Made by a program: the position numbers and the translations under genes. Below the pieces are notes generated by a model. The model was not told the DNA's origin, did no database searches, and saw nothing but the letters and a program-made list of their open reading frames with translations. From a virus (lineage: Duplodnaviria; Heunggongvirae; Uroviricota; Caudoviricetes), in IMG/VR virus record IMGVR_UViG_3300032241_002220, positions 25,376-89,375 of that record: a stretch of 64,000 bases of DNA. The stretch is one strand, 5' to 3'. How positions within the stretch are numbered: position 1 is the first letter of the stretch; each line of letters starts with the position of its first letter. This document shows positions 37,084-48,448 of this stretch, piece by piece.

Positions 37084-37136
37084 AAATGTGTGGAGGAGCG
37101 AAAGCTCCTTCGTATATTTACATAAATAAAAAGCTT
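37084..37136 (+). promoter_or_regulatory. promoter: TGTGG + GGAGGAGC-GAAA-GCTCCTTC hairpin + TATATTTACATAAATAAAAAGCTT
   Basis: GNRA-loop hairpin in the spacer. ATG 37137. Confidence 0.55.
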
Positions 37137-37919
37137 ATGAAAAATTTAAATTTTATTCCACTTAACAACGATGTGAACAAATTAATTGCTTTTACACCTT
37201 CATTAGATGGTGGATGGCGGAAAAACCAAAGGATTGAATCTAAACCTTTTTATACTGAAACATTGGATGTTGTAAAAATGTTACAAAAGGAAGGATGGAG
37301 AGTAGATGGTTCGTATGAAAATAGAAATAAAGCATCTCGTAAAATAGGTAAACATTGTGTTCGTTTATCTCATCCTGATTTAGGAATAAAAATTCAGGGT
37401 AAAAATGAAGGTTTTGCTAGTATGTACTTAACTAATAGCTGTAATGGTTCATCTCCATTAAATATGGATTTTGGAATGTATCGCCAAGTTTGTTCAAATG
37501 GTTTAGTTGTTAAAGATATTTATGCTGATTCAAAAATCAAACATACTGAAAAAGATTATAATCGTTTACCTCAAATTATTGCAGGTTTGGAATCTAAGAT
37601 TCAACCTATGTTTCGAAAATTTGAACATTTAAAAAATGTTACTTTAACAGATAAACAAATGAGAGATCTTGCTAAAGAAGCATCACTTATTCGTTTTGAA
37701 CAAGATCATAAAATCAATACAGATCAATTGCTTAGTGTTCGTCGTGTTGAAGATGAAGGAAACAATCTATGGGCTGTTTATAATCGCATACAAGAAAATT
37801 TAACACAGCCTAATATGTTAATAGATGAAAAAGGTAATTTAATTAGTGATATATCTAATCCGTTAGTTGACATTAGTATTAATCAAGGTTTATACGATCT
37901 TGTTGAAGCTTATGCATAG
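37137..37919 (+). CDS. hypothetical protein, paralog A (DUF932-like?)
   Basis: Start placed after the conserved promoter (track ORF 37086 runs through it). Shares LTNSxxG...F..VC.NGLV with the next gene. Confidence 0.5.
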   Translation: MKNLNFIPLNNDVNKLIAFTPSLDGGWRKNQRIESKPFYTETLDVVKMLQKEGWRVDGSYENRNKASRKIGKHCVRLSHPDLGIKIQGKNEGFASMYLTNSCNGSSPLNMDFGMYRQVCSNGLVVKDIYADSKIKHTEKDYNRLPQIIAGLESKIQPMFRKFEHLKNVTLTDKQMRDLAKEASLIRFEQDHKINTDQLLSVRRVEDEGNNLWAVYNRIQENLTQPNMLIDEKGNLISDISNPLVDISINQGLYDLVEAYA

Positions 37920-38003: not shown

Positions 38004-38804
38004 ATGTTAAACTTAAACAATTCAGAATTCTTAAATCAAGAACAAATCCGCAAAATCGCTCCAAGCGTATTTACAAAACAAGGTTCAGATACTACCTCAG
38101 AAAAGTATGCTCATATTCCCACTAATCGTATTATCGAAGATATGGAAACCTTGGGTTGGGGTGTTGTTGATGCTAAAGAGGTTAAAGCTCGTAGGCAAAT
38201 AGGATACCAAAAACATTTGGTTGTATTTCGCAATAACGATATTGTTATCGAAGGTTCAGATAATGATACTGTTTATCCTCAAATCTTGTTAACCAATAGC
38301 CATGATGGTAAAAATGCTTTTACTTTCACAGCTGGTTTGTTTCGTATGGTTTGTGAAAATGGTTTGGTTATATCCAGCCAAGAATTCAACGATATGAAGA
38401 TTCGTCACTATGGTTATGATTTTGAAACTCTTCAAAACACAATCAAAGAAATGGTTGAAAAATTGCCTTTGACAGTTGAATCGATGAACAAATTTAAGCA
38501 AACTGAGCTTGATCAAGAAGCTGCTTTGGATTTTGCTAAACGAGCTGTTGGATGTCGTTTTAGTGAAGAAGAAATTGAAAATGTTAAAATCAATTGGGAA
38601 GATTTGTTAACACCAACCCGCGTTGAAGATAAAGGAAACGATCTTTGGAGTGTGTTTAATGTAGTTCAAGAAAAATTAGTTCACGGTATGTTCAATTATA
38701 CCTACGGTAATAAACACCGTAAAGCTCGTAAAATCAAAAACTTCAAACAAGATATGGTTTTGAACGAGAAATTGTATGATTTGGCTTTAGAATACGCTAA
38801 CTAA
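38004..38804 (+). CDS. hypothetical protein, paralog B (DUF932-like?)
   Basis: 266 aa. LLTNSHDGKNAFTFTAGLFRMVCENGLV parallels paralog A. Promoter upstream, terminator downstream. Confidence 0.5.
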   Translation: MLNLNNSEFLNQEQIRKIAPSVFTKQGSDTTSEKYAHIPTNRIIEDMETLGWGVVDAKEVKARRQIGYQKHLVVFRNNDIVIEGSDNDTVYPQILLTNSHDGKNAFTFTAGLFRMVCENGLVISSQEFNDMKIRHYGYDFETLQNTIKEMVEKLPLTVESMNKFKQTELDQEAALDFAKRAVGCRFSEEEIENVKINWEDLLTPTRVEDKGNDLWSVFNVVQEKLVHGMFNYTYGNKHRKARKIKNFKQDMVLNEKLYDLALEYAN

Positions 38805-38812: not shown

Positions 38813-38841
38813 GGGGCGGTTAACGCCGCCCCACAATTTTT
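38813..38841 (+). terminator. rho-independent terminator
   Basis: GGGGCGG-ttaacg-CCGCCCC + ACAATTTTT. Confidence 0.6.
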
Positions 38842-38846: not shown

Positions 38847-39311
38847 ATGAACATTCAAAGAATTACACCCGAAGAAGCTCAACAATATATTAGTTGCAAA
38901 GACGATTTGTTAGGTTACCCTTCAGAATTTTATACTTTGACTCCTTCAATCGAACTGGGTTGGGAAGATGTTACATATTATACCGCTAGAAAGAAAAATA
39001 TGGTTAATCGTGAAGGAGAAGGTAAATATTGGATTTACGTTTTATCTAACGATTCCGTGCCTAATATGATTAAAATTGGATACACGAAGCAATCGCCCGA
39101 AGAACGCGCAAATCAATTATCTGCTGCCACAGGTGTTGCTACTCCATTTAAAGTTGAATATGTTTTTAAATGCCATGAAGGTGAATTTTTAGAATCTGAG
39201 GTGCATAAACATTTAGATGCGTATCGTGTTAGTAACAATAGGGAGTTTTTTACTATTAGTGTAAAAGAAGCACAAGAAATTATTGAAGAACTTGGAAAAA
39301 AATACATTTAA
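38847..39311 (+). CDS. GIY-YIG-like (T5orf172/MUG113-type) domain protein
   Basis: WIYVLSN...IKIGYT...ERANQL...PFKV pattern. Confidence 0.45.
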   Translation: MNIQRITPEEAQQYISCKDDLLGYPSEFYTLTPSIELGWEDVTYYTARKKNMVNREGEGKYWIYVLSNDSVPNMIKIGYTKQSPEERANQLSAATGVATPFKVEYVFKCHEGEFLESEVHKHLDAYRVSNNREFFTISVKEAQEIIEELGKKYI

Positions 39312-39568: not shown

Positions 39569-39808
39569 ATGATTTACTTTTTAATCTTTTACGTTCTACC
39601 TGCTTTCCTTATGTGGAGGTACATTCACGTCAATTTCTCAAAAGGGGGAAGAGAGGAGGGTAAAGAAATACTACCTGTACTTTTGCTTTTTGTTTTCCTA
39701 CCTGTAATTAATTTTTTTGGTAGTGTCTTTTTTTGGTTAACAGAATATCCAAAAAAACGTGCAGGTAGAAACATTGGAGTAGATAAATTCTTTAGAATCA
39801 AAAAATAA
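39569..39808 (+). CDS. small membrane protein
   Basis: 79 aa hydrophobic. Confidence 0.4.
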   Translation: MIYFLIFYVLPAFLMWRYIHVNFSKGGREEGKEILPVLLLFVFLPVINFFGSVFFWLTEYPKKRAGRNIGVDKFFRIKK

Positions 39809-39814
39809 AATATT

Positions 39815-40042
39815 ATGTCTAATACAAAAATGAGATTACTTAGAGCATTATCTGTACCGGCTATTATATTCTTACCTTACTTTGCAGGACAGTTTGTATG
39901 CTCACCAGGTGTACCTAAAATCATAGTGTGGATTGGGGGAGTATTTGTAGTAAGTGTTTCTGCGGGAGTTTTAGCTCTTGTAGTTGCAGTTTTGCATGAT
40001 TTTTTTGAATGGATTTGGTATGGATCAAAAAAAAGATATTGA
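39815..40042 (+). CDS. small membrane protein
   Basis: 75 aa hydrophobic. Confidence 0.4.
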   Translation: MSNTKMRLLRALSVPAIIFLPYFAGQFVCSPGVPKIIVWIGGVFVVSVSAGVLALVVAVLHDFFEWIWYGSKKRY

Positions 40043-40075
40043 TTATTAAAATTAAAAAATAAATAAAAATCAAAA

Positions 40076-40945
40076 ATGAAAAGGTTTACGTATGTGCTAG
40101 CTCTCGCACTTTCTTTGAGCACTATTTTTTCAATGCAATCTTGTGAACGAATTAGTCCTACTGAGGCTGGTTTTAAGATTAGCAATTCAGGAAATTATCG
40201 CGGTATTGATAGTTTACCACTTTTAACAGGTTGGCAATTTTACACTCCCGGTTTTAATTACATTGTAACCATTCCTACAGTAATGCAACATGAAGTTTGG
40301 ACTGATTCCAAAGAGGGTCAAGAGGGTATGAATGCAATTACAATCGCTTGTATGGGTGGTGCCGGTTTTAGGGTTGATGTTGGTCTAAACTACCACGTTG
40401 ATGCAAATAAAGCTTCCCATATTTACCTTAAATGGAGGAATGATGATCTAAACCAGATTACAAACCAGTATATTAAGAATATTGTTCGTGGTTGTATGCA
40501 AGATGTTTCCGGTCATATTACAGTTGATAGTATTCTAACAAATCTACCGGCTTATGAACATGAAGTTGCATCTAATATAACTAAGAAACTAGGTGCTGAT
40601 GGGTTTATTGTAGACGGTTTTAACATTACATCTCAACCACGTCCTACAGATGCTAACTTGGCTGCTTCAATCAACGCTAAGGTAAAAGCAAAACAGGATG
40701 CCGAAACCTCGGTTATGGAACTACAAAAATCAATTGCTGAAGCAAACAAGAAAATTGCTGATGCTCGTGGTGATAGCGCCTCTAAGGTAATCGAATCAGC
40801 TGGTGAAGCCGCAGCTATACGTTTGAAACAACAAGTGGTTACACCAACATATGTTGAGTATATCAAAGCTAGTTCTTGGGACGGTAAATTACCAAGTGTT
40901 ATGACTGGTTCTGGTGGTACAATGTTGAATATAAGTACAAAATAA
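40076..40945 (+). CDS. lipoprotein with SPFH/band-7-like domain
   Basis: 289 aa. Lipobox FSMQSC. Central region resembles prohibitin/stomatin. Ala/Lys-rich coiled-coil C-terminus. Confidence 0.4.
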   Translation: MKRFTYVLALALSLSTIFSMQSCERISPTEAGFKISNSGNYRGIDSLPLLTGWQFYTPGFNYIVTIPTVMQHEVWTDSKEGQEGMNAITIACMGGAGFRVDVGLNYHVDANKASHIYLKWRNDDLNQITNQYIKNIVRGCMQDVSGHITVDSILTNLPAYEHEVASNITKKLGADGFIVDGFNITSQPRPTDANLAASINAKVKAKQDAETSVMELQKSIAEANKKIADARGDSASKVIESAGEAAAIRLKQQVVTPTYVEYIKASSWDGKLPSVMTGSGGTMLNISTK

Positions 40946-40947
40946 TT

Positions 40948-40993
40948 GAATCGACTGGGTTAAAGGGCGGGTTCGACTCCCGCCCCGATTCCA
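40948..40993 (+). ncRNA. tRNA-like minihelix (acceptor + T-arm only) resembling the tmRNA 3' domain
   Basis: GAATCG-ACTGGGTTAAAG-GGGCGGG TTCGACT CCCGCCC-CGATTC-CA. Same T-loop TTCGACT as the tmRNA at 48426. 13 bp coaxial stem. Sits between two genes. Confidence 0.4.
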
Positions 40994-41006
40994 AAAAACA
41001 AATATT

Positions 41007-41327
41007 ATGAAAAAAATATATCATTTAGTAGACTCAAAACTCAAAATTAACGAATATGATTTTGAAGTAGAATCAATAAATTCAGATAGAACAATCTATA
41101 GGTTAAAAAGATCTGAAGTAAAAGAACAATGGACATTACCTGGAGAATTGTTATTAGAGATTGAAGATAATGGAAATGGTTTTGAACTTATAGTTTTTCA
41201 ATTCCCTAATCAATACGATACATTTGCCGAATTATCAGTGTTAATGAATTGTATTAGAGCATTAGATACAGGTATTACTAATACTTTTGAACTTATTGAA
41301 TCAAATCCAATAGCAACAAATTTATAA
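41007..41327 (+). CDS. hypothetical protein
   Basis: 106 aa ORF. Confidence 0.45.
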   Translation: MKKIYHLVDSKLKINEYDFEVESINSDRTIYRLKRSEVKEQWTLPGELLLEIEDNGNGFELIVFQFPNQYDTFAELSVLMNCIRALDTGITNTFELIESNPIATNL

Positions 41328-41348
41328 ACTTTAAAAAATACAAATACA

Positions 41349-41573
41349 ATGGGATTCTTATTATTTTTATTATTTTGGATTAGCGGAATGTGCGTTCAAT
41401 ATGTTAGGGTACACACTACCCATAAAGATTGGTTAGAACAAAGAAAAGAGATAGCTGATGATATAGAGCAACCTTTATTCCTGCCTTATATGGCTATTGC
41501 CCTTTCTTGGTTTGCTTTTCTAGCAATGACAATCAAACGCTTTTTAGACAAAACATTTATAAACAAAAAATAA
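41349..41573 (+). CDS. small membrane protein
   Basis: 74 aa. Confidence 0.4.
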   Translation: MGFLLFLLFWISGMCVQYVRVHTTHKDWLEQRKEIADDIEQPLFLPYMAIALSWFAFLAMTIKRFLDKTFINKK

Positions 41574-41582
41574 ACACATATT

Positions 41583-41771
41583 ATGGCCGACACAATCAAT
41601 GTTCAGAAATCAGATTTGATAAATCAACTTTTCTTTTTAAACGAAATAAAACAAGATCTTTGGGTATTTCATCCAAACAATCCCGAACAAATTAATGTTG
41701 TTCAAGAATATGAAGCTATAGTGGAAGAAATGAAATCTATAGAAGAAAAAATAGAAAGTTTGGAAAATTAA
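41583..41771 (+). CDS. hypothetical protein
   Basis: 62 aa. Confidence 0.35.
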   Translation: MADTINVQKSDLINQLFFLNEIKQDLWVFHPNNPEQINVVQEYEAIVEEMKSIEEKIESLEN

Positions 41772-41990
41772 AAAAACATTTGTATATTTATCGCGGAAAC
41801 AAGAAATTATATATATTTATATTAAACAATTAAAAATGCAATTAATATCATTACATACAAGCTGGCCTATAGAACGTAGAGATACGTTATCGCTAGGGTA
41901 TTGCTTTAGTGCGAATATTAATGTGCAAGGCAAACCAATACCAAACCAGGATACAATGGAAAAAGGGTAAGATATAAATACCAAAACATT

Positions 41991-42022
41991 AGCTCCTGGT
42001 TCAAAAGATCAGGAGCTTTTTT
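41991..42022 (+). terminator. rho-independent terminator
   Basis: AGCTCCTG-gttcaaaagat-CAGGAGCT + TTTTT, just upstream of the tRNA array. Confidence 0.65.
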
Positions 42023-42029
42023 AATTTAC

Positions 42030-42102
42030 GGTGCCTAAGCTAATCTGGTGAAAGCGCTAGACTGAAAATCTAGAGAGATAGGGTCGAAACCTATAGGTAC
42101 CA
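42030..42102 (+). tRNA. tRNA-Phe (GAA)
   Basis: Acceptor GGTGCCT/AGGTACC. Anticodon stem CTAGA/TCTAG with loop CTGAAAA. Confidence 0.75.
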
Positions 42103-42172
42103 CAAAAACATAAAAATGAAACGAAAACAGTAACGCCGCTCTGAAATACGAGTGGCATAATAGAAATAAAAT

Positions 42173-42245
42173 GCGCTCGTAGCTCAATTGGTAGAGTAGC
42201 TGGCTTTTAACCAGCGGGTTGTAGGTTCGAACCCTACCGGGCGCA
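42173..42245 (+). tRNA. tRNA-Lys (TTT)
   Basis: GCGCTCG...TAGCTCAATTGGTAGAG. Anticodon stem GCTGG/CCAGC, loop CTTTTAA. T-arm GTAGGTTCGAACCCTAC. Confidence 0.85.
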
Positions 42246-42263
42246 CTTAAAAATATAACACAG

Positions 42264-42338
42264 ACGCGTGTGTAGCTCAATTTGGTAGAGTGTCGGTCTC
42301 CAAAACCGAAGATGAGGGTTCGAGTCCCTACATGCGTG
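42264..42338 (+). tRNA. tRNA-Trp (CCA)
   Basis: Anticodon stem TCGGT/ACCGA, loop CTCCAAA. T-loop TTCGAGT. Confidence 0.8.
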
Positions 42339-42345
42339 CAAGATT

Positions 42346-42418
42346 GCCTTCATAGTTCAATGGATTAGAACACTTGGCTACGGACCAAGAAATAGGAGTT
42401 CGAATCTCTTTGAAGGTA
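42346..42418 (+). tRNA. tRNA-Arg (ACG)
   Basis: Acceptor GCCTTCA/TGAAGGT. Anticodon stem CTTGG/CCAAG, loop CTACGGA. Confidence 0.8.
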
Positions 42419-42423
42419 CAAAA

Positions 42424-42496
42424 GGTCAAATGGCCGAGATGGCGTAGGCGTATGTCTGCAAAACATACCACAACAGTTCGAATCTGTTTTTGACCT
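42424..42496 (+). tRNA. tRNA-Cys (GCA)
   Basis: Acceptor GGTCAAA/TTTGACC. Anticodon stem TATGT/ACATA, loop CTGCAAA. T-arm AACAGTTCGAATCTGTT. Confidence 0.8.
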
Positions 42497-42506
42497 CTTA
42501 AAAAAA

Positions 42507-42560
42507 ATGTTTGGCTACCTAAAAAAACAGTCGTACATTTAAGTATAAGAAGATCTTTGA
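42507..42560 (+). promoter_or_regulatory. tRNA-array internal promoter (TTTGGCTACCTAAAAAAACAGTCGTACATTTAAGTATAAGAAG)
   Basis: Same -33/-7 architecture, 20 nt 5' of tRNA-Pro. Confidence 0.55.
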
Positions 42561-42579
42561 CATATTGGGATTAATTCAA

Positions 42580-42656
42580 TCGAGAGGTCGGGCAGATGGT
42601 TATACCCGCGTGCTTTGGGAGCACGATATCGCTGGTTCGAATCCAGTTCTCTCGAC
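42580..42656 (+). tRNA. tRNA-Pro (TGG)
   Basis: Acceptor TCGAGAG/CTCTCGA. Anticodon stem CGTGC/GCACG, loop TTTGGGA. T-loop TTCGAAT. Has its own promoter-like motif upstream. Confidence 0.75.
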
Positions 42657-42663
42657 ATAAAAT

Positions 42664-42738
42664 GGGCTGGCATGTTCCAAGGCTTGGCGATTCTCCTTTG
42701 CACGGAGAGTGTGAAGAGTTCGATTCTCTTCTGGTCCA
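42664..42738 (+). tRNA. tRNA-Ala (TGC), atypical D region
   Basis: Anticodon stem TCTCC/GGAGA, loop TTTGCAC. T-arm AAGAGTTCGATTCTCTT. The acceptor needs 3 G-U pairs. Confidence 0.5.
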
Positions 42739-42743
42739 CATTC

Positions 42744-42814
42744 AGTCCCTTAGCTCAACGGAAGAGCGCTTGTTTTACATGCAAGAGGCTGTGATATCGT
42801 AATTCACAGGGACT
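42744..42814 (+). tRNA. tRNA-Val (TAC)
   Basis: Acceptor AGTCCCT/AGGGACT. D-arm GCTC..GAGC. Anticodon loop TTTACAT. T-loop ATCGTAA. Confidence 0.7.
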
Positions 42815-42891
42815 ACTCATGGTTTATTAGTATACAATGTCAATCATAGGAACTAATATTGGAGTTATACCAATTAAAAAATATAACAAAC

Positions 42892-42963
42892 GCAGATATC
42901 GTATAGCGGTTATTACTCTGGTCTTCCAAACCGGAGACGTCGGTTCGATTCCGACTATCTGCT
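42892..42963 (+). tRNA. tRNA-Gly (TCC)
   Basis: Acceptor GCAGATA/TATCTGC. Anticodon loop CTTCCAA. T-arm GTCGGTTCGATTCCGAC. Confidence 0.85.
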
Positions 42964-42968
42964 CTTAT

Positions 42969-43041
42969 AGTCCAATGATGTAACTGGCAACATGGCGTGT
43001 TTTGAGCTCGCTCTTCTAGGTTCGAATCCTGGTTGGACTAC
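42969..43041 (+). tRNA. tRNA-Gln (TTG)
   Basis: Acceptor AGTCCAA/TTGGACT. D-stem ATGT/ACAT. Anticodon loop TTTTGAG. T-arm CTAGGTTCGAATCCTGG. Confidence 0.75.
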
Positions 43042-43045
43042 ATTT

Positions 43046-43135
43046 GGAAGCATAGCCTAATTGGTAAGACAGCAGTCTTGAAAACTGCCGTGTCGGTGAT
43101 GAATCGGCTTATAGGTTCGAGTCCTATTGCTTCCG
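43046..43135 (+). tRNA. tRNA-Ser (TGA), class II
   Basis: Acceptor GGAAGCA/TGCTTCC. Anticodon stem GCAGT/ACTGC, loop CTTGAAA. About 22-nt variable arm. T-arm ATAGGTTCGAGTCCTAT. Confidence 0.85.
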
Positions 43136-43488
43136 CTAAAATAAACTAGACACTGTAAAAACCAGTGGTTGACTTAATAACTATAGGAGTAATTACCTAT
43201 GTATGCGAACAGCAATTAATCCTGACAGCAATGTTTATTTTAATATGGGTCTTTAAGCTTTAAGGTGAAGCGCATGTTTGTGGAGCATGAGAACTCGGTT
43301 CAATACCGTGATGGACCCCAACAAGGAAAGTAAAGCAACGAGGTTGTTGCCACCACCTGCTAAGTGAGTGGATCATTAAATTGATTGTGTTTCGACTACA
43401 CTGCTTTCCGCGAAATCCAATGTGTGCTGCTGCTAGCCGGAGACACAAAACAGAAGTGAAGGAACTGTTCCACATTTGGATTTTTATT

Positions 43489-43561
43489 GGAGATATAGTA
43501 GAATGGTTCAGCACACCTGTCTGATACGCAGGTAATCCAAGTTCGAGTCTTGGTATCTCCA
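43489..43561 (+). tRNA. tRNA-Ile (GAT)
   Basis: Acceptor GGAGATA/TATCTCC. Anticodon loop CTGATAC. T-arm CCAAGTTCGAGTCTTGG. Confidence 0.8.
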
Positions 43562-43571
43562 CTTATAAATT

Positions 43572-43644
43572 GGACTTGTAGCTCAGAGGCAGAGCAGGCG
43601 GCTGTTAACCGTCAGGTCGGTGATTTCGAAATTCCCCAAGTCCG
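43572..43644 (+). tRNA. tRNA-Asn (GTT), degenerate T-arm
   Basis: Acceptor GGACTTG/CAAGTCC is perfect. D-arm GCTC..GAGC. Anticodon loop CTGTTAA. T-stem pairs poorly (GGTGA TTTCGAA ATTCC). Confidence 0.55.
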
Positions 43645-43651
43645 CAAAATT

Positions 43652-43740
43652 GAGAGTAAGGTAACTATTGGTTGGTTATCAACGGCTGTAACCCGTCAGG
43701 CCCAGAAAGGGGGTAGGTTCGATTCCTACTACTCTCACCA
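43652..43740 (+). tRNA. tRNA-Tyr (GTA), class II, CCA encoded
   Basis: Acceptor GAGAGTA/TACTCTC followed by A-CCA. Anticodon loop CTGTAAC. Variable arm CCCAGAAAGGG. T-arm GTAGGTTCGATTCCTAC. Confidence 0.75.
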
Positions 43741-43761
43741 AAATAAAAAAACTTCTTAAAA

Positions 43762-43820
43762 AGAGGTTGGCTTATAGAAATCTTGTTCGTATATTTAGGT
43801 ATAAGAAAAAAGATAAGAAG
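43762..43820 (+). promoter_or_regulatory. tRNA-array internal promoter (TTGGCTTATAGAAATCTTGTTCGTATATTTAGGTATAAGAAAAAAGATAAGAAG)
   Basis: After tRNA-Tyr, before the second tRNA sub-cluster. Confidence 0.5.
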
Positions 43821-43835
43821 CTCTTTGAAAATATT

Positions 43836-43910
43836 GAAACTGTGGTAATAAGTTGAGTTACTTCGTATGGCTTATATAAAATGAACTCACTTAAGCATTC
43901 CCGGTTAAAA
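43836..43910 (+). repeat. conserved hairpin element copy 1 (GTAATAAGTTGAGTTACTTCGT ... AACTCACTTAAGC)
   Basis: A near-identical 22-nt arm recurs at 44622. Stem AAGTTGAGTT/AACTCACTT. Confidence 0.5.
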
Positions 43911-43941
43911 TCATTTAGGTGGTTAATTAGAAAGTTACTTC

Positions 43942-44015
43942 GCACGAATAGTTCAATGGTTGAACATTTTCATATCCAGAAAAAGTAACGGGTTCAATTC
44001 CCGTTTCATGCCCCA
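43942..44015 (+). tRNA. tRNA-like gene with non-standard anticodon loop ATATCCA (anticodon ATC?), CCA encoded
   Basis: Acceptor GCACGAA/TTCATGC (one C-A mismatch) + C-CCA. Canonical D-arm TAGTTCAATGGTTGAAC. Anticodon stem TTTTC/GAAAA. T-arm ACGGGTTCAATTCCCGT. Confidence 0.45.
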
Positions 44016-44067
44016 AAAAAACTTTCTTAAACATTCCCCTAAACTTATTTGATGAATAGTAAGGACC

Positions 44068-44145
44068 AGCGTTACTTCGCGTGCAAGGTGCACATTTAAA
44101 TTTGGCTTTTAAAAATCGCGGTTCAATTCCGCCTGAAACGCTACC
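44068..44145 (+). ncRNA. degenerate tRNA-like element ending in ACCA
   Basis: T-arm GCGGTTCAATTCCGC and a terminal ...GAAACGCTACCA. 5' AGCGTTA pairs with AAACGCT, but the D/anticodon region (GTGCAAGGTGCAC hairpin) does not fold as a tRNA. Confidence 0.3.
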
Positions 44146-44168
44146 AATGTTCTTTCATCATTTTTTAT

Positions 44169-44241
44169 GTTCCTGAGGACAAAATGGTTGAGTCGTCACC
44201 CTTTCAAGGTGAAGGAGCGGGATCGTTACCCGTCAGGAATA
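44169..44241 (+). tRNA. tRNA-Glu (TTC)
   Basis: Acceptor GTTCCTG/CAGGAAT (one G-U). Anticodon stem TCACC/GGTGA, loop CTTTCAA. T-arm GCGGGATCGTTACCCGT. Confidence 0.7.
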
Positions 44242-44247
44242 CAACAA

Positions 44248-44318
44248 GGTCTATTAGTGAATTGGTATCATATCTCACTGTCTATGAGAAGTGCTCGGAT
44301 CGTAACCGTGATAGACCG
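44248..44318 (+). tRNA. tRNA-Asp (GTC)
   Basis: Acceptor GGTCTAT/ATAGACC. Anticodon stem TCTCA/TGAGA, loop CTGTCTA. T-loop ATCGTAA. Confidence 0.7.
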
Positions 44319-44327
44319 CCAACAAAT

Positions 44328-44400
44328 GCTTCTATAGCTCAATGGTCAGAGCAGGACGCTTATATCGTCAAGGCTACAGGTTCGAGTCCTGTTAGAAGTA
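44328..44400 (+). tRNA. tRNA-Ile (TAT) (AUA-reading, UAU anticodon)
   Basis: Acceptor GCTTCTA/TAGAAGT. D-arm GCTC AATGGTCA GAGC. Anticodon loop CTTATAT with U33 and A37. T-arm ACAGGTTCGAGTCCTGT. Confidence 0.65.
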
Positions 44401-44417
44401 CTAAAAACAAAAATAAA

Positions 44418-44609
44418 ATGAAAAAAATAGTAATCTACAAAGATGTAGAAAATGTAAACGGTAAAAAAGAACGTCATATTCTTCGTTCAATCCAGCCTAG
44501 TTATGATTGGCAAGGATATGCGAAAAATAAAAACAGTATGATAGATTCTGAAGTTAGGAATTTAGCACGTGCTTTAGAACCTAGTTTTACAGGATTCTAT
44601 GTAGCATAA
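44418..44609 (+). CDS. hypothetical small protein
   Basis: MKKIVIYKDVENVNGKK... The track ORF 44184..44609 starts inside tRNA genes, so it is trimmed to the first ATG after tRNA-Ile(TAT). Confidence 0.4.
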   Translation: MKKIVIYKDVENVNGKKERHILRSIQPSYDWQGYAKNKNSMIDSEVRNLARALEPSFTGFYVA

Positions 44610-44621
44610 AGATATTTGCTG

Positions 44622-44690
44622 TAGTAATAAGTTGAGTTACTTCGTCTGACTTTTTAATTCATAAATGAAAAAACAACTCACTTAAACTTT
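44622..44690 (+). repeat. conserved hairpin element copy 2 (GTAATAAGTTGAGTTACTTCGT ... AACTCACTTAAAC)
   Basis: Second copy, upstream of the tRNA-Met/Thr/Arg/Leu sub-cluster. Confidence 0.5.
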
Positions 44691-44712
44691 CTCAGTAAAC
44701 TTATTTTAAAAT

Positions 44713-44787
44713 TGTGGGATGCGTAGAAAATGGTTATCTCGTCAGTCTCATAAGCTGAAGTTCCCGGTTCAAGTCCGGGTCCCGCAA
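44713..44787 (+). tRNA. tRNA-Met (CAT)
   Basis: Acceptor TGTGGGA/TCCCGCA (one G-U). Anticodon stem TCAGT/GCTGA, loop CTCATAA. T-arm CCCGGTTCAAGTCCGGG. Confidence 0.7.
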
Positions 44788-44911
44788 CATAAGTCCTTGA
44801 TCAGGAACCGAAGATATGGTCGGCCTCTTGTGTAAACAATGCACACTGCTACCATCTAAACCGTAGGTTAGCACAGTTCACAACTCTGGGGATATTTTAA
44901 AAGTTGTATTT

Positions 44912-44986
44912 GGACGCATAGTTTAGTTGGAAAAACACTTGCCTTGTAAGCATGAGTTCTCGGGTCGGTTCCGGGTGTGTCCTCCA
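44912..44986 (+). tRNA. tRNA-Thr (TGT), CCA encoded, unusual T-loop
   Basis: Acceptor GGACGCA/TGTGTCC + T-CCA. Anticodon loop CTTGTAA (stem has one U-U). T-arm CTCGG GTCGGTT CCGGG. Confidence 0.6.
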
Positions 44987-44991
44987 CGCAT

Positions 44992-45064
44992 GGTTCTATC
45001 GTTCAATGGATTAGGACAATTGCCTTCTAAGCAATTTATGCTGGTTCGAATCCAGCTAGAACTA
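44992..45064 (+). tRNA. tRNA-Arg (TCT)
   Basis: Acceptor GGTTCTA/TAGAACT. Anticodon stem ATTGC/GCAAT, loop CTTCTAA. T-arm GCTGGTTCGAATCCAGC. Confidence 0.85.
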
Positions 45065-45070
45065 CAACCC

Positions 45071-45152
45071 GCTCCGATGGTGTAATTGGCAGCCACGCTA
45101 GACTTAGGATCTAGTGTCGTAAGACGTAAGGGTTCGAGTCCCTTTTGGAGCA
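45071..45152 (+). tRNA. tRNA-Leu (TAG), class II
   Basis: Acceptor GCTCCGA/TTGGAGC. Anticodon stem CTAGA/TCTAG, loop CTTAGGA. Variable hairpin GTCGTAAGACG. T-arm AAGGGTTCGAGTCCCTT. Confidence 0.8.
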
Positions 45153-45162
45153 CTTAACAAAA

Positions 45163-45248
45163 TATTTGGCTAAGCAAAAAATTGGTCTTATATTTACGAC
45201 ATAATAAAGCAATTAAAAATTCTCTAACAATAAAAAATTAGTAGTAAA
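45163..45248 (+). promoter_or_regulatory. promoter for the Ro60-like gene (TTTGGCTAAGCAAAAAATTGGTCTTATATTTACGACATAATAAAG)
   Basis: ATG 45249. Confidence 0.5.
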
Positions 45249-46790
45249 ATGGCACGTTACAATTCAAAAGCAACAACAGTTACTCCAACAGTAACAAACC
45301 ACCAAGGTGGAACAGGGTACAAATACGACCCAAAAACAGAATTAATCTCAATATTAGCAACAGGCTTGGATAACAAGTATTATGAAAAAGTAGGTGAACG
45401 TGAACAACGTTTGGCCAAAGTCATAGAAGAAGTAGCTAAAAAAGACAAACTATTTGCTGCAAAAGCTCTAGTGTATGCTCGTACCGTAATGGGACAAAGA
45501 ACAGTAACACACTTTGGTGCTGTAGAATTAGCTAAAGTATTAGGAGGTGATTCTCTAGGTTCTCGTTTCTTTTCAAAGCGTGAACGTAAACAAAACAAAG
45601 GTGGTATTATCTTCCGTTTGGATGATATGCTTGAAATTGCTGCTTGTTATCAAGCACGTAATGAAGGTAAACCATTTTCAAATGCAATCAAGAAAGGTTT
45701 TAAATCCGCTCTTGAATCAGCAGATGAATATGAATTAGCTAAATATCAAGCTAAAAATCGCGATTTATCTTTAGTTGACATCGTTAACTTAGTACACCCA
45801 AAACCATCACCAAGAATGGCTCCAGTGTTTGCTAAATTGATGAAAGGTGAACTTAAACAGTTTAATACTGTAGAAGATAAAAATACTAAAGCTGGTCAAG
45901 AAGTTGCTGCTAAAGTAAAAGAAGGTAAAATTACTAAAGAAGAAGCAGCAGTTGAATTAGCGCAAGCTAAAGAAGACAACTATGCCGAATTGATTAAAAC
46001 ACGTAAAATCGGTTATTTAGCTTTATTACGTAATTTACGCAATATTCTAAAAACAGGTGCCGATAAAGAAATTATAAACGGTGCTTGTGAACTATTAACT
46101 GATCAAAAGTTAATTAAACAATCTTTAGTGTTTCCACACCAAATAGATTTAGCATTAGAAATAATGTTGGATGAATTTGGTTCAAGTAAAGTTAAACCAT
46201 TTGTTAAAGCATTAAACACCGCTTACGAACTAGCGATACCAAACCTAACAGAATTATTTCCAAATGGCCGCACAGCGGTTGTATTTGACAGTTCAGGTTC
46301 AATGTCAACATCTATTAGTTTAGCTAATAAAAATAATGGTTCAGAATCAGCCATTTCAAAAGCAGCATTAATTGCCGCTACTTTAGCTAAAGGTATTGAA
46401 GCCGATGTTTATCACTTTGCTGATCGTTGTGATGAAATCAAGTTTAACCCACTTGATACAGTTAACACACTTAAGAATCAATTTTTAAATAAACAAGGTT
46501 CAGTTGGTTATGGTACTGCCTTTGCCAGTATTATGAAAAAATTAGGTGATCAATATGACCGTGTGTTTGTAATATCGGATATGCAAGGTAGTGATTATCT
46601 TGAAAGAGCTAATTACAAAAATCTTCACATATATTCAATCGATATTGCCGGTTATGGTACAACAATGTTCAAACCAGGAAACAAAGTTTATTCATTGTTT
46701 GGTTATTCTGCCGATATTTATGAATTGATAAAGAAAGTGGAAATCGATCCAAAAGCGTTAATCGCCGAAATCGAAGCAATAGAAATTTAA
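45249..46790 (+). CDS. rsr: Ro60-like TROVE domain + vWA domain RNA-binding protein
   Basis: 513 aa. N-terminal QGGTGYKYDPKTELISILATGLDNKYYE resembles the TROVE signature. C-terminal TAVVFDSSGSMS is a vWA MIDAS DxSxS. Domain order as in Ro60/Rsr. Confidence 0.6.
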   Translation: MARYNSKATTVTPTVTNHQGGTGYKYDPKTELISILATGLDNKYYEKVGEREQRLAKVIEEVAKKDKLFAAKALVYARTVMGQRTVTHFGAVELAKVLGGDSLGSRFFSKRERKQNKGGIIFRLDDMLEIAACYQARNEGKPFSNAIKKGFKSALESADEYELAKYQAKNRDLSLVDIVNLVHPKPSPRMAPVFAKLMKGELKQFNTVEDKNTKAGQEVAAKVKEGKITKEEAAVELAQAKEDNYAELIKTRKIGYLALLRNLRNILKTGADKEIINGACELLTDQKLIKQSLVFPHQIDLALEIMLDEFGSSKVKPFVKALNTAYELAIPNLTELFPNGRTAVVFDSSGSMSTSISLANKNNGSESAISKAALIAATLAKGIEADVYHFADRCDEIKFNPLDTVNTLKNQFLNKQGSVGYGTAFASIMKKLGDQYDRVFVISDMQGSDYLERANYKNLHIYSIDIAGYGTTMFKPGNKVYSLFGYSADIYELIKKVEIDPKALIAEIEAIEI

Positions 46791-46813
46791 AATTTTCCAA
46801 TAAAGTAAAATGA

Positions 46814-46838
46814 CTGGGTGTTTCTACACCCGGTTTTT
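46814..46838 (+). terminator. rho-independent terminator after the Ro60-like gene
   Basis: CTGGGTG-tttcta-CACCCGG + TTTTT. Confidence 0.65.
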
Positions 46839-47035
46839 ATTTAAAGTTCTTTGAAATATTATACTATAGTAAGGGTTTGTGAGGTACTTCGTATTTATAA
46901 ACTAGCTTAGAAATAAGCATTTTAATTATACACATATCAGATAAAAACCTCGTACTAGGTGCCTCTTGAAAATAACCAACAACAAGAGCAAATAAGTACA
47001 AACTCACCCCAGTAATCTTAGTATATTTTTTTTTT

Positions 47036-47120
47036 GCCTGGGTGTCGTAAAGGTAGCCGAGGTGGACTTAAAATCCACTGAACTGTAAGGTTCGTGCGGG
47101 TTCGATTCCCGCTCCAGGTA
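47036..47120 (+). tRNA. tRNA-Leu (TAA), class II
   Basis: Anticodon stem GTGGA/TCCAC, loop CTTAAAA. Variable hairpin GAACTGTAAGGTTC. T-arm GCGGGTTCGATTCCCGC. Acceptor GCCTGGG/TCCAGGT has G-U at both ends. Confidence 0.75.
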
Positions 47121-47122
47121 CT

Positions 47123-47584
47123 ATGAAAAAAGCAATTTATCTAGACGACGTCAGAACACCAATCAATGGTGATGTTGAATGGATTGTGGTTAGAAATTAT
47201 AATGAATTTGTATCTAAAGTTCAAGAAATTGGATTGGAAAATATTGATGTAATTTCTTTAGATCATGATCTTGGGGATAGTGCTATGAATGAATATTTTA
47301 AAAATGTTGCTCCTAATTATACTTTGGATTACAATAATATTACCGAAAAAACGGGATATGATTGTGCAAAATGGTTAGTTGAATATTTTTATATAAAAAA
47401 TCCTAATTGGAAATATAAAAGTAGAGATGTTAAACAAGGAAGTCTATTTCGATTTCCAAAAGTATTTACCCATTCAGCTAATCCTATAGGTTCAGCTAAT
47501 ATTATGGGTTATATAAATAATTTTTTAATGAATGAAGTTCAAAGCCAAACCTGTGTAAGAGTTCAAATTCAACACACAATTTAA
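47123..47584 (+). CDS. hypothetical protein
   Basis: 153 aa. ATG 3 nt after tRNA-Leu(TAA). Confidence 0.5.
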   Translation: MKKAIYLDDVRTPINGDVEWIVVRNYNEFVSKVQEIGLENIDVISLDHDLGDSAMNEYFKNVAPNYTLDYNNITEKTGYDCAKWLVEYFYIKNPNWKYKSRDVKQGSLFRFPKVFTHSANPIGSANIMGYINNFLMNEVQSQTCVRVQIQHTI

Positions 47585-47595
47585 AAATTTATGAA

Positions 47596-48051
47596 ATGAA
47601 ACAGTTTAAAACATTAAGCGCTCATAGAAAAGTCGACTTAATACCATACATAAGAGAATATGTTGCTAATCATCCAGAAACAGAAGTTTTAATTGGTTGT
47701 GACTCTCAAAACAGAAAAAAAGAAACTGTTTATGCTATTGTGGTAGGTTTATATACACCTGGAAAAGGCGCTCACGTTTTGTATTCTAAATTTTTTATTC
47801 AACGTGAACGAGATAACGTAGTTCGTTTATTAAACGAAGTATGGAATTCTGTTGAAACCGCAGAACAAATTAAAAATGAAATAGGAATAAAAGCAACTTG
47901 GATTGATATTGACTTAAACCCAGATCCAAAATATCGTTCAAACCAAGCACTGGCGAGTGCAGTTGGTGTTGTAACAGGTATGGGTTATAATGTAAGACAT
48001 AAAGGTAATTCACCTGTTATGACTTATGCAGCAGATCATCTTGTTAAATAA
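47596..48051 (+). CDS. hypothetical protein
   Basis: 151 aa. Stop 2 nt before the tmRNA 5' end. Confidence 0.5.
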   Translation: MKQFKTLSAHRKVDLIPYIREYVANHPETEVLIGCDSQNRKKETVYAIVVGLYTPGKGAHVLYSKFFIQRERDNVVRLLNEVWNSVETAEQIKNEIGIKATWIDIDLNPDPKYRSNQALASAVGVVTGMGYNVRHKGNSPVMTYAADHLVK

Positions 48052-48052
48052 C

Positions 48053-48448
48053 GGGGTCGACCGGTTTTGACAGCAATTGAAGTAGAGAAAGATGATGCAG
48101 GCAGTGTTAGTATTGGAAACACTTAAATAACCTATACAAACAATAAACGCAAACGTAGAATTATCTACTTGGACAATCGAAGATGCTTTGGCATTTGTAG
48201 ATGGTGAATTCGCACTAGCTGCCTAGTTCACCCAGGGGCTTCACACACGCGCCTTGCAACAGAAGTGTATTTAAAAAGGAACTAAGAGGCTTACCTTTTC
48301 AAAAAAGAGTACTCGGTAGGTTTTCAGTCCCAATCGTCCGAGAAGCGGAACTGGTATTTTGTCTAGTTAGAAAACGAGACTAAGCCTGTGAATGAGTCGA
48401 TTTAGACTTATTGTTTGGACGGGAGTTCGACTCTCCCCGACTCCACAA
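48053..48448 (+). ncRNA. ssrA: tmRNA (ssrA)
   Basis: 5' GGGGTCG pairs with 3' CGACTCC-A. The 3' tRNA-like domain GGACGGGAGTTCGACTCTCCCCGACTCCAC matches the tmRNA TLD consensus. Internal reading frame 48149-48226 encodes ANVELSTWTIEDALAFVDGEFALAA then TAG, the characteristic ...ALAA-stop tag. No overlapping CDS on either strand. Confidence 0.8.

What the first reader, a model, noticed from the sequence alone, without database searches (positions are those of the whole stretch)
40948..40993. Stand-alone tRNA-like minihelix that copies the tmRNA 3' tRNA-like domain
GAATCG...GGGCGGG TTCGACT CCCGCCC CGATTC-C-A forms a 6-bp acceptor coaxial with a 7-bp T-stem, and its T-loop is identical to that of the tmRNA gene 7.5 kb downstream (TTCGACT). 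It lies in an intergenic gap after the SPFH lipoprotein gene, followed by A-rich sequence and no T-run, so it is not a simple terminator. It is a candidate RNase P or CCA-adding/aminoacylation substrate, a processing signal, or a decoy.
Basis: seen in the sequence. Interest (0 to 1): 0.6.

Follow-up and report, generated by a model that had tools for sequence, protein, structure and literature searches.

The report
tRNA-like minihelix punctuating phage genes
The 45-base hairpin after the SPFH gene is real and belongs to a widespread, apparently unannotated family of miniature tRNA look-alikes (acceptor stem, D-loop-like linker, T arm) that sit between genes of many bacterial and archaeal viruses, most likely as cutting signals for the host's tRNA-processing enzymes.

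Summary
Window 40948-40991 folds as a 6-bp acceptor-like stem stacked on a 7-bp T stem with the loop TTCGACT. An 11-nt linker (ACTGGGTTAAA) bulges from the 5' strand. The element lies between the SPFH gene and the next ORF, on the gene strand.

It is not a copy of the tmRNA tRNA-like domain. A covariance model built only from ten look-alikes in unrelated viruses hits the window element at full length (36 bits, E about 1e-7) and nothing else there. Those ten include Clostridioides difficile phages and the halovirus HCTV-2.

Across 49 family members the stems covary strongly. The T loop, the two innermost G-C pairs and a linker GG are conserved. These are the features that build the tRNA elbow.

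Members are intergenic and co-directional with the genes. Some phages carry one after each gene of an operon, for example eight copies in Streptomyces phage Alsaber.

Relatives of the window phage carry a real tRNA, an odd tRNA, another minihelix or an ordinary terminator at the same spot.

The best reading, which is inferred and not shown, is a "t-element": an RNase P / RNase Z processing signal that segments polycistronic mRNA. Rfam 15 and the searched literature do not describe this family.

The parts
40076..40945 (+). Upstream cistron: SPFH/Band_7 lipoprotein gene; stop codon TAA at 40943-40945, 2 nt before the element
   Evidence: ORF list; Pfam Band_7 E=7.5e-16 and PHROG 200 'lipoprotein' E=1.3e-38
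40948..40953 (+). Acceptor-like stem, 5' strand GAATCG. An alternative 5-bp pairing, AATTG 40944-40948 with CGATT, starts inside the stop codon
40954..40964 (+). 11-nt linker ACTGGGTTAAA: a D-loop-like segment with the conserved ACUGG motif (GG at 40957-40958). It is inferred to dock on the T loop as G18/G19 do in tRNA
   Evidence: The linker motif is conserved across the family. The docking itself is inferred
40965..40971 (+). T stem, 5' strand GGGCGGG
40972..40978 (+). T loop TTCGACT (consensus TTCRAYT)
40979..40985 (+). T stem, 3' strand CCCGCCC
40986..40991 (+). Acceptor-like stem, 3' strand CGATTC
40992..40999 (+). Unpaired 3' tail CAAAAAAC: a discriminator-like C plus an A-rich trailer like those of the phage's tRNA genes. 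No CCA is encoded
41007..41327 (+). Downstream cistron (106 aa, no family match), starting 15 nt after the helix

Best explanation
The element is a transcribed mimic of the top half of a tRNA. A 6-bp acceptor-like stem is stacked on a 7-bp T stem (13 bp in all). It carries a canonical T loop and an 11-nt linker that replaces the D arm, the anticodon arm and the variable loop. The linker keeps a D-loop-like ACUGG, so a tRNA 'elbow' can form.

It belongs to a widespread family of such minihelices in tailed viruses of bacteria and archaea. Family members lie between co-directional genes.

Most likely mechanism (inferred): in the polycistronic transcript the element is recognised by the universal tRNA-maturation enzymes.
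- RNase P cuts at its 5' edge, predicted at U40947|G40948 or one position in.
- RNase Z, or an equivalent 3' pathway, cuts after the discriminator-like C40991/C40992.
- This separates the SPFH mRNA from the downstream mRNA and releases a roughly 45-nt minihelix that could receive CCA.

In other words it is a viral 't-element', working by tRNA punctuation. What is shown: the structure, the family membership, the covariation, and the intergenic co-directional placement. What is inferred: cleavage by RNase P and RNase Z, and its consequences.
For: Structure and specificity.

Family membership:
- Model R2 was built from 10 elements of unrelated viruses, with the window excluded. It hits 40948-40992 at full length with 36.0 bits, E about 1.6e-7. 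The next best hits in the window are tRNA T arms at 17 bits or less.
- R2 also recovers the other minihelix types: those after SPFH genes, the GGTAG types, and the one in Gordonia phage Cafasso. It gives 35 hits in 100 further loci.

Covariation:
- In 49 aligned members, 96.6% of cells are paired and 10 of 12 pairs show changes on both sides.
- There are 239 double-change cells against 73 +/- 8 in shuffles. Slid controls are about 50% paired.
- The two innermost T-stem pairs are invariant G-C, as G53-C61 is in tRNA. G-U pairs are present, which points to RNA on this strand.

tRNA-like statistics over 51 distinct descriptor hits: stack of 11-13 bp (mode 12), G at +1 in 31, and A as the most frequent first unpaired 3' base.

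Placement:
- Elements are always on the strand of the flanking genes and start 0-25 nt after a stop codon in low-GC members.
- Four copies lie between consecutive ORFs in L215.
- Eight copies lie in Streptomyces phage Alsaber, all in intergenic gaps of one leftward operon and nowhere else in 48.8 kb.

Same slot, interchangeable occupants. After the SPFH gene, relatives carry:
- a true tRNA-Gln (L020-24);
- odd tRNAs (L005 at 35.7 bits, L054 at 49.3 bits);
- another minihelix (L009, L011);
- an ordinary terminator (L008, L012-14).

Precedent:
- RNase P cleaves acceptor/T-stem/T-loop hairpins, and the T loop sets the efficiency and the site of cleavage (PMC11143913).
- t-elements are processed by RNase P and RNase Z in plant mitochondria (PMC1920247).

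The phage's own tRNA genes lack an encoded CCA and have similar A-rich trailers.
Against: - No RNA-end mapping or cleavage data exist for any member, so enzyme recognition is inferred from shape only.
- The stack in the window element is 13 bp, not the canonical 12.
- The window holds a single copy, so 'punctuation' here concerns one junction.
- In temperate Firmicutes phages (phiCD27 and others) the element sits in a long non-coding leader, 200-400 nt from the nearest ORF, rather than tightly between cistrons.
- Stem sequences are very strongly conserved in one sub-family: AAGATAG...GTAGGGG stays near-invariant while the flanking coding DNA is about 66% identical. That suggests constraints beyond shape, such as a sequence-specific partner.
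- An earlier leave-one-out model dominated by that sub-family gave only 12.8 bits, E about 1.3, for the window element.
Confidence: 0.5

Rival explanations
1. The excised minihelix is itself the product. It would be a stable small RNA, CCA-tailed and possibly aminoacylated, that acts in trans as a mimic of the tRNA top half. Examples: a decoy or sponge for host toxins or defence enzymes that attack tRNA acceptor ends or elbows, or a ligand for a tRNA-binding factor. Processing would then be only the means of producing it. This is not exclusive with the best explanation.
For: - Primary sequence of the stems is strongly conserved in the AAGATAG sub-family, beyond what pairing needs.
- Copies are confined to an operon of small hypothetical genes at one end of the Alsaber genome.
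- The window phage invests in tRNA and RNA-repair functions: more than 22 tRNAs, a tmRNA, Ro60/TROVE and an RNA ligase.
- M. smegmatis YrlA shows that a tRNA-like module can be cut by RNase P and receive CCA in vivo (PMC4201824).
Against: - No partner protein is identified.
- Stems differ freely between copies within one genome, which argues against a sequence-specific target for the family as a whole.
- The 3-70 position never shows G-U, so the alanine identity pair is absent. Identity elements of other synthetases were not examined.
- The tight placement after stop codons is not needed for a decoy.
Confidence: 0.18
2. A 3'-end hairpin that acts without tRNA enzymes. It would be a U-tract-less terminator or attenuator, or a barrier to 3' exonucleases that stabilises the upstream SPFH mRNA.
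For: - The element starts 2 nt after the stop codon.
- In other members it starts 6-12 nt after the stop codon and lies farther from the next start.
- Relatives carry ordinary terminators at the same spot.
- The hairpin is G+C-rich in a 30% G+C genome.
Against: - There is no T-run, while relatives of this phage use canonical hairpin-plus-T-run terminators.
- A terminator role does not explain the invariant TTCRAYT loop, the invariant G-C pairs, the linker GG or the fixed 12-13-bp stack.
- Eight copies in series within one operon cannot all be efficient terminators.
Confidence: 0.14
3. A decaying remnant of a tRNA gene at the edge of the phage's tRNA array. An internal deletion would have removed the D and anticodon arms, leaving no function.
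For: - The slot holds full-size or odd tRNA genes in relatives (L005, L054, L020-24).
- L005 shares the T loop and the outer acceptor pairs AATC/GATT with the window element.
- tRNA arrays in these phages contain other aberrant tRNA-like genes.
Against: - The same compact design recurs in unrelated viruses: a 9-13 nt linker with ACUGG and a 12-13 bp stack, with abundant compensatory changes.
- In one sub-family the element is conserved far better than its flanks.
- Random decay would not give a significant hit to a model built from other viruses.
Confidence: 0.06
4. A copy of the tmRNA tRNA-like domain. It would act as an SmpB or alanyl-tRNA synthetase decoy, or in ribosome rescue.
For: - The T loop is identical to that of the phage tmRNA.
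- With one gap allowed, the 3' ends are similar: CCCCGAYTCCA(C/A)AAA.
- The 5' parts are similar too: TCGACYGG in both.
- A tmRNA-model T-arm hit scores 13.8 bits.
Against: - G3-U70 is absent; the element has A-U, and the pair is never G-U in the family.
- The family occurs in a haloarchaeal virus and in small phages, and no tmRNA gene was found in the fetched stretches around most members. From general knowledge, not tested here, archaea lack tmRNA and SmpB.
- The tmRNA is not the best-matching T arm in the window.
- R2 scores the tmRNA 3' end at 13.7 bits, E 0.33.
Confidence: 0.03
5. A DNA-level site, such as an attP-like copy of a host tRNA 3' end or another recombination or packaging site.
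For: Phages often carry tRNA 3'-end sequence in attP (general knowledge). Some members lie in prophage-derived contigs.
Against: - The 5' acceptor strand and the linker are present and covary with the 3' strand.
- G-U pairs make the structure strand-specific.
- Several copies can occur per operon.
- The strand always matches that of the genes.
- A scan of 185,579 species genomes for the AAGATAG-type element found only one 3.6-kb contig of a Bacteroidetes MAG.
Confidence: 0.02

Closest known systems
t-elements (tRNA-like processing signals) of plant mitochondria and Haloferax volcanii, and the tRNA punctuation model of mitochondrial transcripts
   Same: Both are non-decoding tRNA-like structures built around an acceptor-like stem and a T arm carrying GGTTCRANYCC. 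They are embedded in longer transcripts next to coding regions. t-elements are reported as substrates of RNase P and RNase Z that define mRNA or rRNA ends (PMC1920247; PMC4326828). The window element matches that T-arm motif (GGTTCGACTCC).
   Different: The present elements are viral, much smaller (about 44 nt), and of a uniform design with a D-loop-like linker and no other arms. They form a sequence and structure family spanning bacterial and archaeal viruses, and they can follow every gene of an operon. No end mapping exists for them.
Synthetic acceptor/T-stem/T-loop 'model hairpin' (minihelix) substrates of RNase P
   Same: Same architecture: acceptor stem stacked on a T stem-loop. The T loop contributes to cleavage efficiency and site choice (PMC11143913).
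   Different: Those substrates are laboratory constructs with a 3' RCCA. The natural elements carry an extra 9-13-nt linker with GG and no encoded CCA.
tmRNA tRNA-like domain
   Same: Both have an acceptor stem plus T arm, with a stem-less D-loop analogue and no anticodon arm. The T loop is identical to that of the phage's own tmRNA.
   Different: The element has no G3-U70, no mRNA-like part and no pseudoknots. The two halves are joined directly by 11 nt instead of about 340 nt. The family is present where tmRNA does not exist.
Bacterial and phage Y RNAs (YrlA) with a tRNA-like module, partners of Ro60/Rsr
   Same: Both are tRNA mimics with a T arm and elbow. M. smegmatis YrlA is cut by RNase P and receives CCA (PMC4201824). 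The window phage encodes a TROVE/Ro60 protein 4.3 kb away.
   Different: YrlA is about 100 nt or more and circularly permuted (T arm, closed acceptor hairpin, D arm), and it has a Ro60-binding helix. There is no such helix here, no Rfam Y-RNA hit, and most family members are in phages whose fetched stretches were not checked for TROVE genes.
mascRNA / MEN-beta tRNA-like elements of MALAT1-type lncRNAs (from general knowledge, not tested here)
   Same: A tRNA-like structure inside a long transcript whose RNase P and RNase Z cleavage creates the 3' end of the upstream RNA and releases a small CCA-tailed RNA.
   Different: Those are eukaryotic, cloverleaf-sized (about 60 nt with an anticodon-like arm), and unrelated in sequence.

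Membership tests
Viral tRNA-like minihelix family defined here (model R2) | Full-length match to a covariance model built from members in unrelated viruses | tested here: met
   36.0 bits, E about 1.6e-7, model positions 1-43 of 43, with the window not in the training set. It scores 28.1 bits with default filters in a 0.9-Mb search.
Viral tRNA-like minihelix family defined here (model R2) | 12-13 bp acceptor/T stack, TTCRAYT loop, and a 9-13 nt linker carrying (A)CUGG | tested here: met
   6+7 bp, TTCGACT, ACTGGGTTAAA.
Viral tRNA-like minihelix family defined here (model R2) | Intergenic, on the same strand as the flanking genes | tested here: met
   The element lies between 40076-40945(+) and 41007-41327(+).
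t-element (tRNA-like processing signal) | Acceptor-like stem plus T arm with the GGTTCRANYCC motif, not a decoding tRNA | tested here: met
   GGTTCGACTCC at 40970-40980. There is no anticodon arm, and neither ARAGORN nor Rfam calls a tRNA.
t-element (tRNA-like processing signal) | Transcript ends coincide with the element's edges; cleavage by RNase P and/or RNase Z | not testable with these tools
   No transcript data were available. This needs end mapping or in vitro assays.
tRNA gene | Cloverleaf with D arm and anticodon arm | tested here: not met
   Only 11 nt lie between the acceptor 5' strand and the T stem. Not called by ARAGORN or by Rfam tRNA.
tmRNA tRNA-like domain | G3-U70 alanine identity pair in the acceptor stem | tested here: not met
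   The corresponding pair is A-U in the window element. In the 49-member alignment this pair is never G-U.
tmRNA tRNA-like domain | Specific similarity to tmRNA beyond generic T-arm features | tested here: inconclusive
   The T loop is identical and the 3' end is similar if a gap is allowed. However, the ungapped match ranks 9th among the window's T arms, only a 17-nt T-arm hit to the tmRNA model is found at 13.8 bits, and R2 scores the tmRNA 3' end at 13.7 bits.
Intrinsic (rho-independent) terminator | G+C-rich hairpin followed directly by a U-tract | tested here: not met
   The hairpin is present, but the tail is CAAAAAAC and the terminator scan does not list it.
YrlA / Y RNA | Ro60-binding helix plus a permuted T-arm / closed acceptor hairpin / D-arm module | tested here: not met
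   The architecture differs (PMC4201824). No Y-RNA family hit in 40850-41100 or 44300-48100.
attP copy of a host tRNA 3' end | Identity with a host tRNA or tmRNA gene 3' end, with an integrase nearby | tested here: inconclusive
   The only genome-collection scan used a pattern that included the 5' part of the AAGATAG sub-family, so host 3'-end identity for the window element was not tested directly. No integrase was seen among the proteins scanned. The covarying 5' strand argues against this reading.

The most novel reading that the evidence does not exclude
The minihelices are excised and accumulate as a new class of viral small RNA: CCA-tailed 'top-half tRNAs' shared by viruses of bacteria and archaea. 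These would act in trans, for example by soaking up host defence toxins or enzymes that recognise the tRNA acceptor end or elbow, or by engaging the translation apparatus. In sub-families where the stop codon overlaps the acceptor stem, RNase P cleavage would in addition strip the stop codon from the upstream mRNA. That would link expression of that gene to polyadenylation or to tmRNA-mediated rescue.
Probability: 0.15. Interest if true: 0.85.

Novelty: new variant of a known kind. Interest (0 to 1): 0.66.

Why it matters
If the inference holds, many tailed viruses of bacteria and archaea use a miniature tRNA mimic to make the host's own tRNA-maturation enzymes cut their polycistronic mRNAs. 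That is the logic of mitochondrial tRNA punctuation and of plant and haloarchaeal t-elements, but in viruses and in a 44-nt format. Three consequences would follow:

- It would add a common, currently unannotated feature to phage genome annotation. The feature is present in cultured C. difficile, Streptomyces and Gordonia phages and in a halovirus.
- It would explain the roughly 80-100-nt gaps between small genes in some operons.
- It would provide a natural minimal substrate for RNase P, RNase Z and CCA-adding enzymes, and a compact part for engineering RNA processing.

It is directly testable in cultured systems.

Tried and rejected
- A nucleotide search of 39800-42100 against 50,697 phage records found no match, so relatives had to be found through the SPFH protein and through DNA patterns.
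- Model R1, built mostly from the AAGATAG sub-family with a mixed stem register, gave only 12.8 bits, E about 1.3, for the window element. It was inconclusive and was replaced by R2.
- MAFFT alignments A3 and A4 mis-registered the acceptor strands of members with 7-bp T stems. They were not used for models.
- An apparent second minihelix in L001 (4896-4934) is the variable arm plus T arm of a normal tRNA-Leu.
- The phi80 M3 RNA, recalled from memory as a classic non-tRNA RNase P substrate, is annotated as an oop-like RNA in the record and is not a member.
- phiC31 was tested because I recalled reports of U-tract-less early terminators in it. It has no member.
- Y-RNA/YrlA was considered after finding a TROVE gene and rejected on architecture and the lack of Rfam hits.
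- Rfam 15 at permissive thresholds gives no family for the window element or for members in five other loci.
- Five literature searches found no description of such phage elements.
It therefore does not test host tRNA 3'-end identity.
- The three large protein-homology searches, structure prediction and fold search were not used, since the feature is an RNA.

Full report
**1. The observation**

The sequence is as described. The SPFH gene (40076-40945) ends with TAA at 40943-40945. Its identity rests on Pfam Band_7 and PHROG 200 'lipoprotein'.

After two T's come, in order:
- GAATCG (40948-53)
- an 11-nt linker ACTGGGTTAAA (40954-64)
- GGGCGGG (40965-71)
- the loop TTCGACT (40972-78)
- CCCGCCC (40979-85)
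- CGATTC (40986-91)
- the tail CAAAAAAC

The next ORF starts at 41007. RNAfold returns this fold as the minimum-energy structure, -19.6 kcal/mol. The z-score against shuffles is modest at -2.24.

The specificity lies in the motif, not the energy:
- The T-arm core GGTTCGAMTCC occurs 14 times in the window against 0.54 expected. Those sites are T arms of called tRNAs, this element, and one 1-mismatch site at 61513.
- A descriptor for the whole architecture hits once in the window and never in 300 dinucleotide shuffles.
- ARAGORN and Rfam at gathering thresholds do not call the element. At a permissive threshold only the 17-nt T arm matches the tmRNA model, at 13.8 bits.

The window is a roughly 30% G+C phage segment. 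It holds more than 22 tRNA genes at 42030-47121 and a tmRNA at 48053-48446. The tmRNA T loop is indeed TTCGACT.

**2. Relatives of the SPFH locus**

The region has no nucleotide match among 50,697 deposited phage genomes. SPFH relatives were therefore fetched from IMG/VR and JGI metagenomes. A 100%-identical contig comes from Trout Bog Lake.

Directly after the SPFH stop codon, relatives carry different things:

| Relative (SPFH identity) | What follows the stop codon |
|---|---|
| L001, L016, L026, L064 (near-identical) | the identical element |
| L005 (84%) | a 75-nt odd tRNA: Rfam tRNA 35.7 bits, 8-bp acceptor, same T loop, same outer acceptor pairs |
| L054 (81%) | a tRNA with a 29-nt insert in the anticodon loop (49.3 bits) |
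| L020-24 (24%) | a hairpin plus a true tRNA-Gln |
| L008, L012-14, L033/34 and others | ordinary hairpin-plus-T-run terminators |
| L009, L011 (about 62%) | a second minihelix of the same layout and size, with entirely different stems: AAGATA-GTTTGGAACGG-GTAGGGG-TTCGATT-CCCCTAC-TATCTT-C |

The slot at the 3' end of the SPFH cistron is therefore conserved, while its occupant varies among devices that all create or mark an RNA 3' end.

**3. A family**

*The L009-type T arm.* An exact scan of IMG/VR for this T arm returned 29 loci. About 24 are minihelices, not tRNAs.
- Some follow SPFH genes of a further clade.
- Others follow an unrelated small gene ending ...RAKISA.
- Contigs whose SPFH gene is followed by a terminator carry the minihelix after the RAKISA gene instead (same contigs: L012/L077, L013/L087, L014/L093, L008/L094).
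- The 5' 15 nt were not part of the query, yet they are near-invariant. Meanwhile the upstream coding DNA is about 66% identical and the downstream DNA about 46%.

*A higher-G+C phage group (L069, L078, L080, L089, L097).* These phages have several copies per locus. The copies have different, mutually compensating stems, a constant TTCGATT loop, and linkers such as ACTGGGAAA or AGCTGGTGCTAA.

Twenty-two of its matches, with unrelated stems, had the minihelix layout.

*Cultured viruses.* All of the following are unannotated in the records:
- C. difficile phages phiCD27, phiMMP02, CDMH1, phiCD505, CDKM9 and phiCD508 share one member at 100% identity.
- Gordonia phage Cafasso.
- Haloarchaeal virus HCTV-2.
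- Streptomyces phages of the Camvirus group.

**4. Is the window element a member?**

A first model (R1) was dominated by the AAGATAG sub-family. It gave a full-length but insignificant hit: 12.8 bits, E about 1.3.

A second model (R2) was built from ten ACTGG-type elements of unrelated viruses, with the window and its near-identical contigs excluded.
- It hits 40948-40992 over all 43 model positions with 36.0 bits, E about 1.6e-7. The calibration is rough.
- The next hits in the window are tRNA T arms at 17 bits or less. The tmRNA 3' end scores 13.7 bits, E 0.33.
- R2 also recovers the AAGATAG, GGTAG and other types.
- It gives 35 hits in 100 further loci, and no ordinary tRNA at full length.

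**5. Structure support**

In the 49-member alignment (48 distinct sequences), 96.6% of cells are paired and 10 of 12 pairs show changes on both sides. There are 239 double-change cells against 73 +/- 8 in shuffles. Slid controls are about 50% paired.

Two caveats apply. The alignment was fitted to the model. Part of the set was found with descriptors that require pairing. However, the acceptor stems of the T-arm-seeded set and the CM-only hits were not selected for pairing.

Conserved features are those of the tRNA elbow and the acceptor end:
- The two innermost T-stem pairs are invariant G-C, as G53-C61 is in tRNA.
- The loop is TTCRAYT.
- The linker keeps a GG in a D-loop-like context (ACUGGUGUUA, compared with the tRNA pattern A14-R-Y-Y-G18-G19-N-A21).
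- Over 51 distinct descriptor hits, the stack is 11-13 bp (mode 12), +1 is G in 31, and the first unpaired 3' base is most often A.

No CCA is encoded. The window phage's own tRNA genes also lack CCA, and their A-rich trailers resemble the element's. G-U pairs occur, so the structure is specific to the RNA of the gene strand.

**6. Placement**

Elements are always co-directional with their neighbours.
- In the AAGATAG and GGTAG sub-families, the last two bases of the upstream stop codon are the first bases of the acceptor stem.
- In the window the gap is 2 nt. An alternative 5-bp pairing, AATTG/CGATT, would start inside the stop codon.
- In L215, four copies separate consecutive ORFs.
- In Streptomyces phage Alsaber, all eight hits in 48.8 kb are on the minus strand. 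They lie in the intergenic gaps of the leftward right-arm operon of small genes gp65-gp76, 6-12 nt after stop codons where the gaps were measured.
- In temperate Firmicutes phages, the single copy lies in a long non-coding region between a regulator gene and the late genes (anti-repressor, terS). It is preceded by a hairpin ending in ACCA.

**7. Mechanism**

Shown: a conserved, strand-specific mimic of the tRNA top half with an elbow, placed between cistrons.

Inferred: it is read by the enzymes that recognise exactly these features. Those enzymes exist in both bacteria and archaea, as the halovirus member requires.
- RNase P cleaves acceptor/T-stem/T-loop hairpins, and the T loop tunes the site and the efficiency (PMC11143913).
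- RNase Z and the CCA-adding enzyme accept such substrates. This rests on general knowledge.
- t-elements are processed by both enzymes in plant mitochondria (PMC1920247) and in Haloferax (PMC4326828).

Cleavage would detach the SPFH mRNA from the downstream message. The downstream message would then start with a short A-rich leader. Cleavage would also free a roughly 45-nt minihelix.

Rivals:
- The free minihelix may be the real product, for example a decoy. This is not excluded and is not exclusive with processing.
- A plain hairpin, terminator or stabiliser role does not explain the tRNA-specific conservation.
- Pseudogene decay does not explain the recurrence and covariation.
- The tmRNA-copy idea fails on G3-U70, on ranking and on phylogenetic spread.
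- A DNA-level site is contradicted by the covarying 5' strand, the G-U pairs and the multiple copies per operon.

**8. What is known**

Rfam 15 has no family for the window element or for five other loci with members. Six full-text searches found nothing on such phage elements.

The concept itself is established: tRNA-like processing signals, minihelix substrates, and tRNA punctuation. To the extent these tools can tell, what is new is a compact, conserved viral family with a D-loop-like linker, spanning viruses of two domains and punctuating operons. I therefore rate it a new variant of a known kind. Interest is about 0.66. The mechanism is untested, and I cannot exclude a description in literature outside the searchable library.

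Noticed in passing
window 45249-48446 and 25663-26799: The phage encodes a TROVE/Ro60 homologue (45249-46790). It is followed by tRNA-Leu, a cREC_REC 'cyclic-phosphate processing receiver' protein (47123-47584), an RNaseH_like PF04308 protein (47596-48051) and the tmRNA. An RNA ligase lies at 25663-26799. Together these look like an RNA-repair and quality-control module. No Y RNA / YrlA family hit was found near the Ro60 gene.
   Followed up: partly
window 30705-30912: A 208-nt intergenic stretch starts like a type-II tRNA (AGTCAGGTGGCGGAATGTTAGACGC) and ends with a T arm GTGGGTTCAAGTCCCAC (30854-30870). The acceptor strands do not pair, and neither ARAGORN nor Rfam calls it. It may be a disrupted or insert-bearing tRNA-like gene, similar to L003 5287-5409, which has an 8+5 bp stack and a 90-nt insert.
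   Followed up: partly
window 42657-42743: The 87-nt gap between tRNA-Pro and tRNA-Val contains a T-arm-like GAAGAGTTCGATTCTCTTC (42704-42732) that no tool calls as a tRNA.
   Followed up: no
window 42030-42102, 44169-44241, 44720-44787, 43942-44015: Three tRNAs are found by Rfam only and not by ARAGORN. ARAGORN reports a tRNA-Asp with the unusual anticodon ATC at 43942-44015. Most tRNA genes of the array, and the tmRNA gene, lack an encoded CCA.
   Followed up: no
L005 4884-4958; L054 571-667; L030 4136-4231; L034 2493-2641: Relatives carry aberrant tRNA-like genes. One has an 8-bp acceptor with a 10-nt anticodon loop. Others have 29-nt or longer inserts (65-116 nt between the acceptor stem and the T stem). 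L005 and L054 lie directly after the SPFH gene.
   Followed up: partly
L217 (phiCD27, NC_011398) 2340-2545: In the C. difficile phages an 8-bp hairpin GAGTGGGG/CCTCACTC followed by ACCA ends one nucleotide before the minihelix. Another T-arm-like GTTAGTTCAATTCTAAC lies about 140 nt upstream. The whole non-coding region before the late genes may be one larger structured RNA.
   Followed up: no
L009 3018-3063, L070, L071, L078, L080, L069 and others: In two sub-families the upstream gene's stop codon (TAA or TAG) overlaps the first bases of the acceptor stem. Cleavage at the 5' edge of the element would therefore remove part of the stop codon, as at mitochondrial mRNA-tRNA junctions.
   Followed up: partly
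L069, L078, L080, L089, L097 (downstream of each minihelix): Each minihelix is followed by a conserved small hairpin (ttCCCCaataGGGG or tCTCCcgcatGGAGa), then GAGGAG and ATG. This makes a composite intercistronic cassette.
   Followed up: no
window 38847-39311 and 38004-38804 / 37086-37919: A T5orf172 / homing-endonuclease-like gene and two DUF932 genes lie just upstream of the SPFH operon. A bidirectional-looking terminator hairpin lies at 38813-38832.
   Followed up: no
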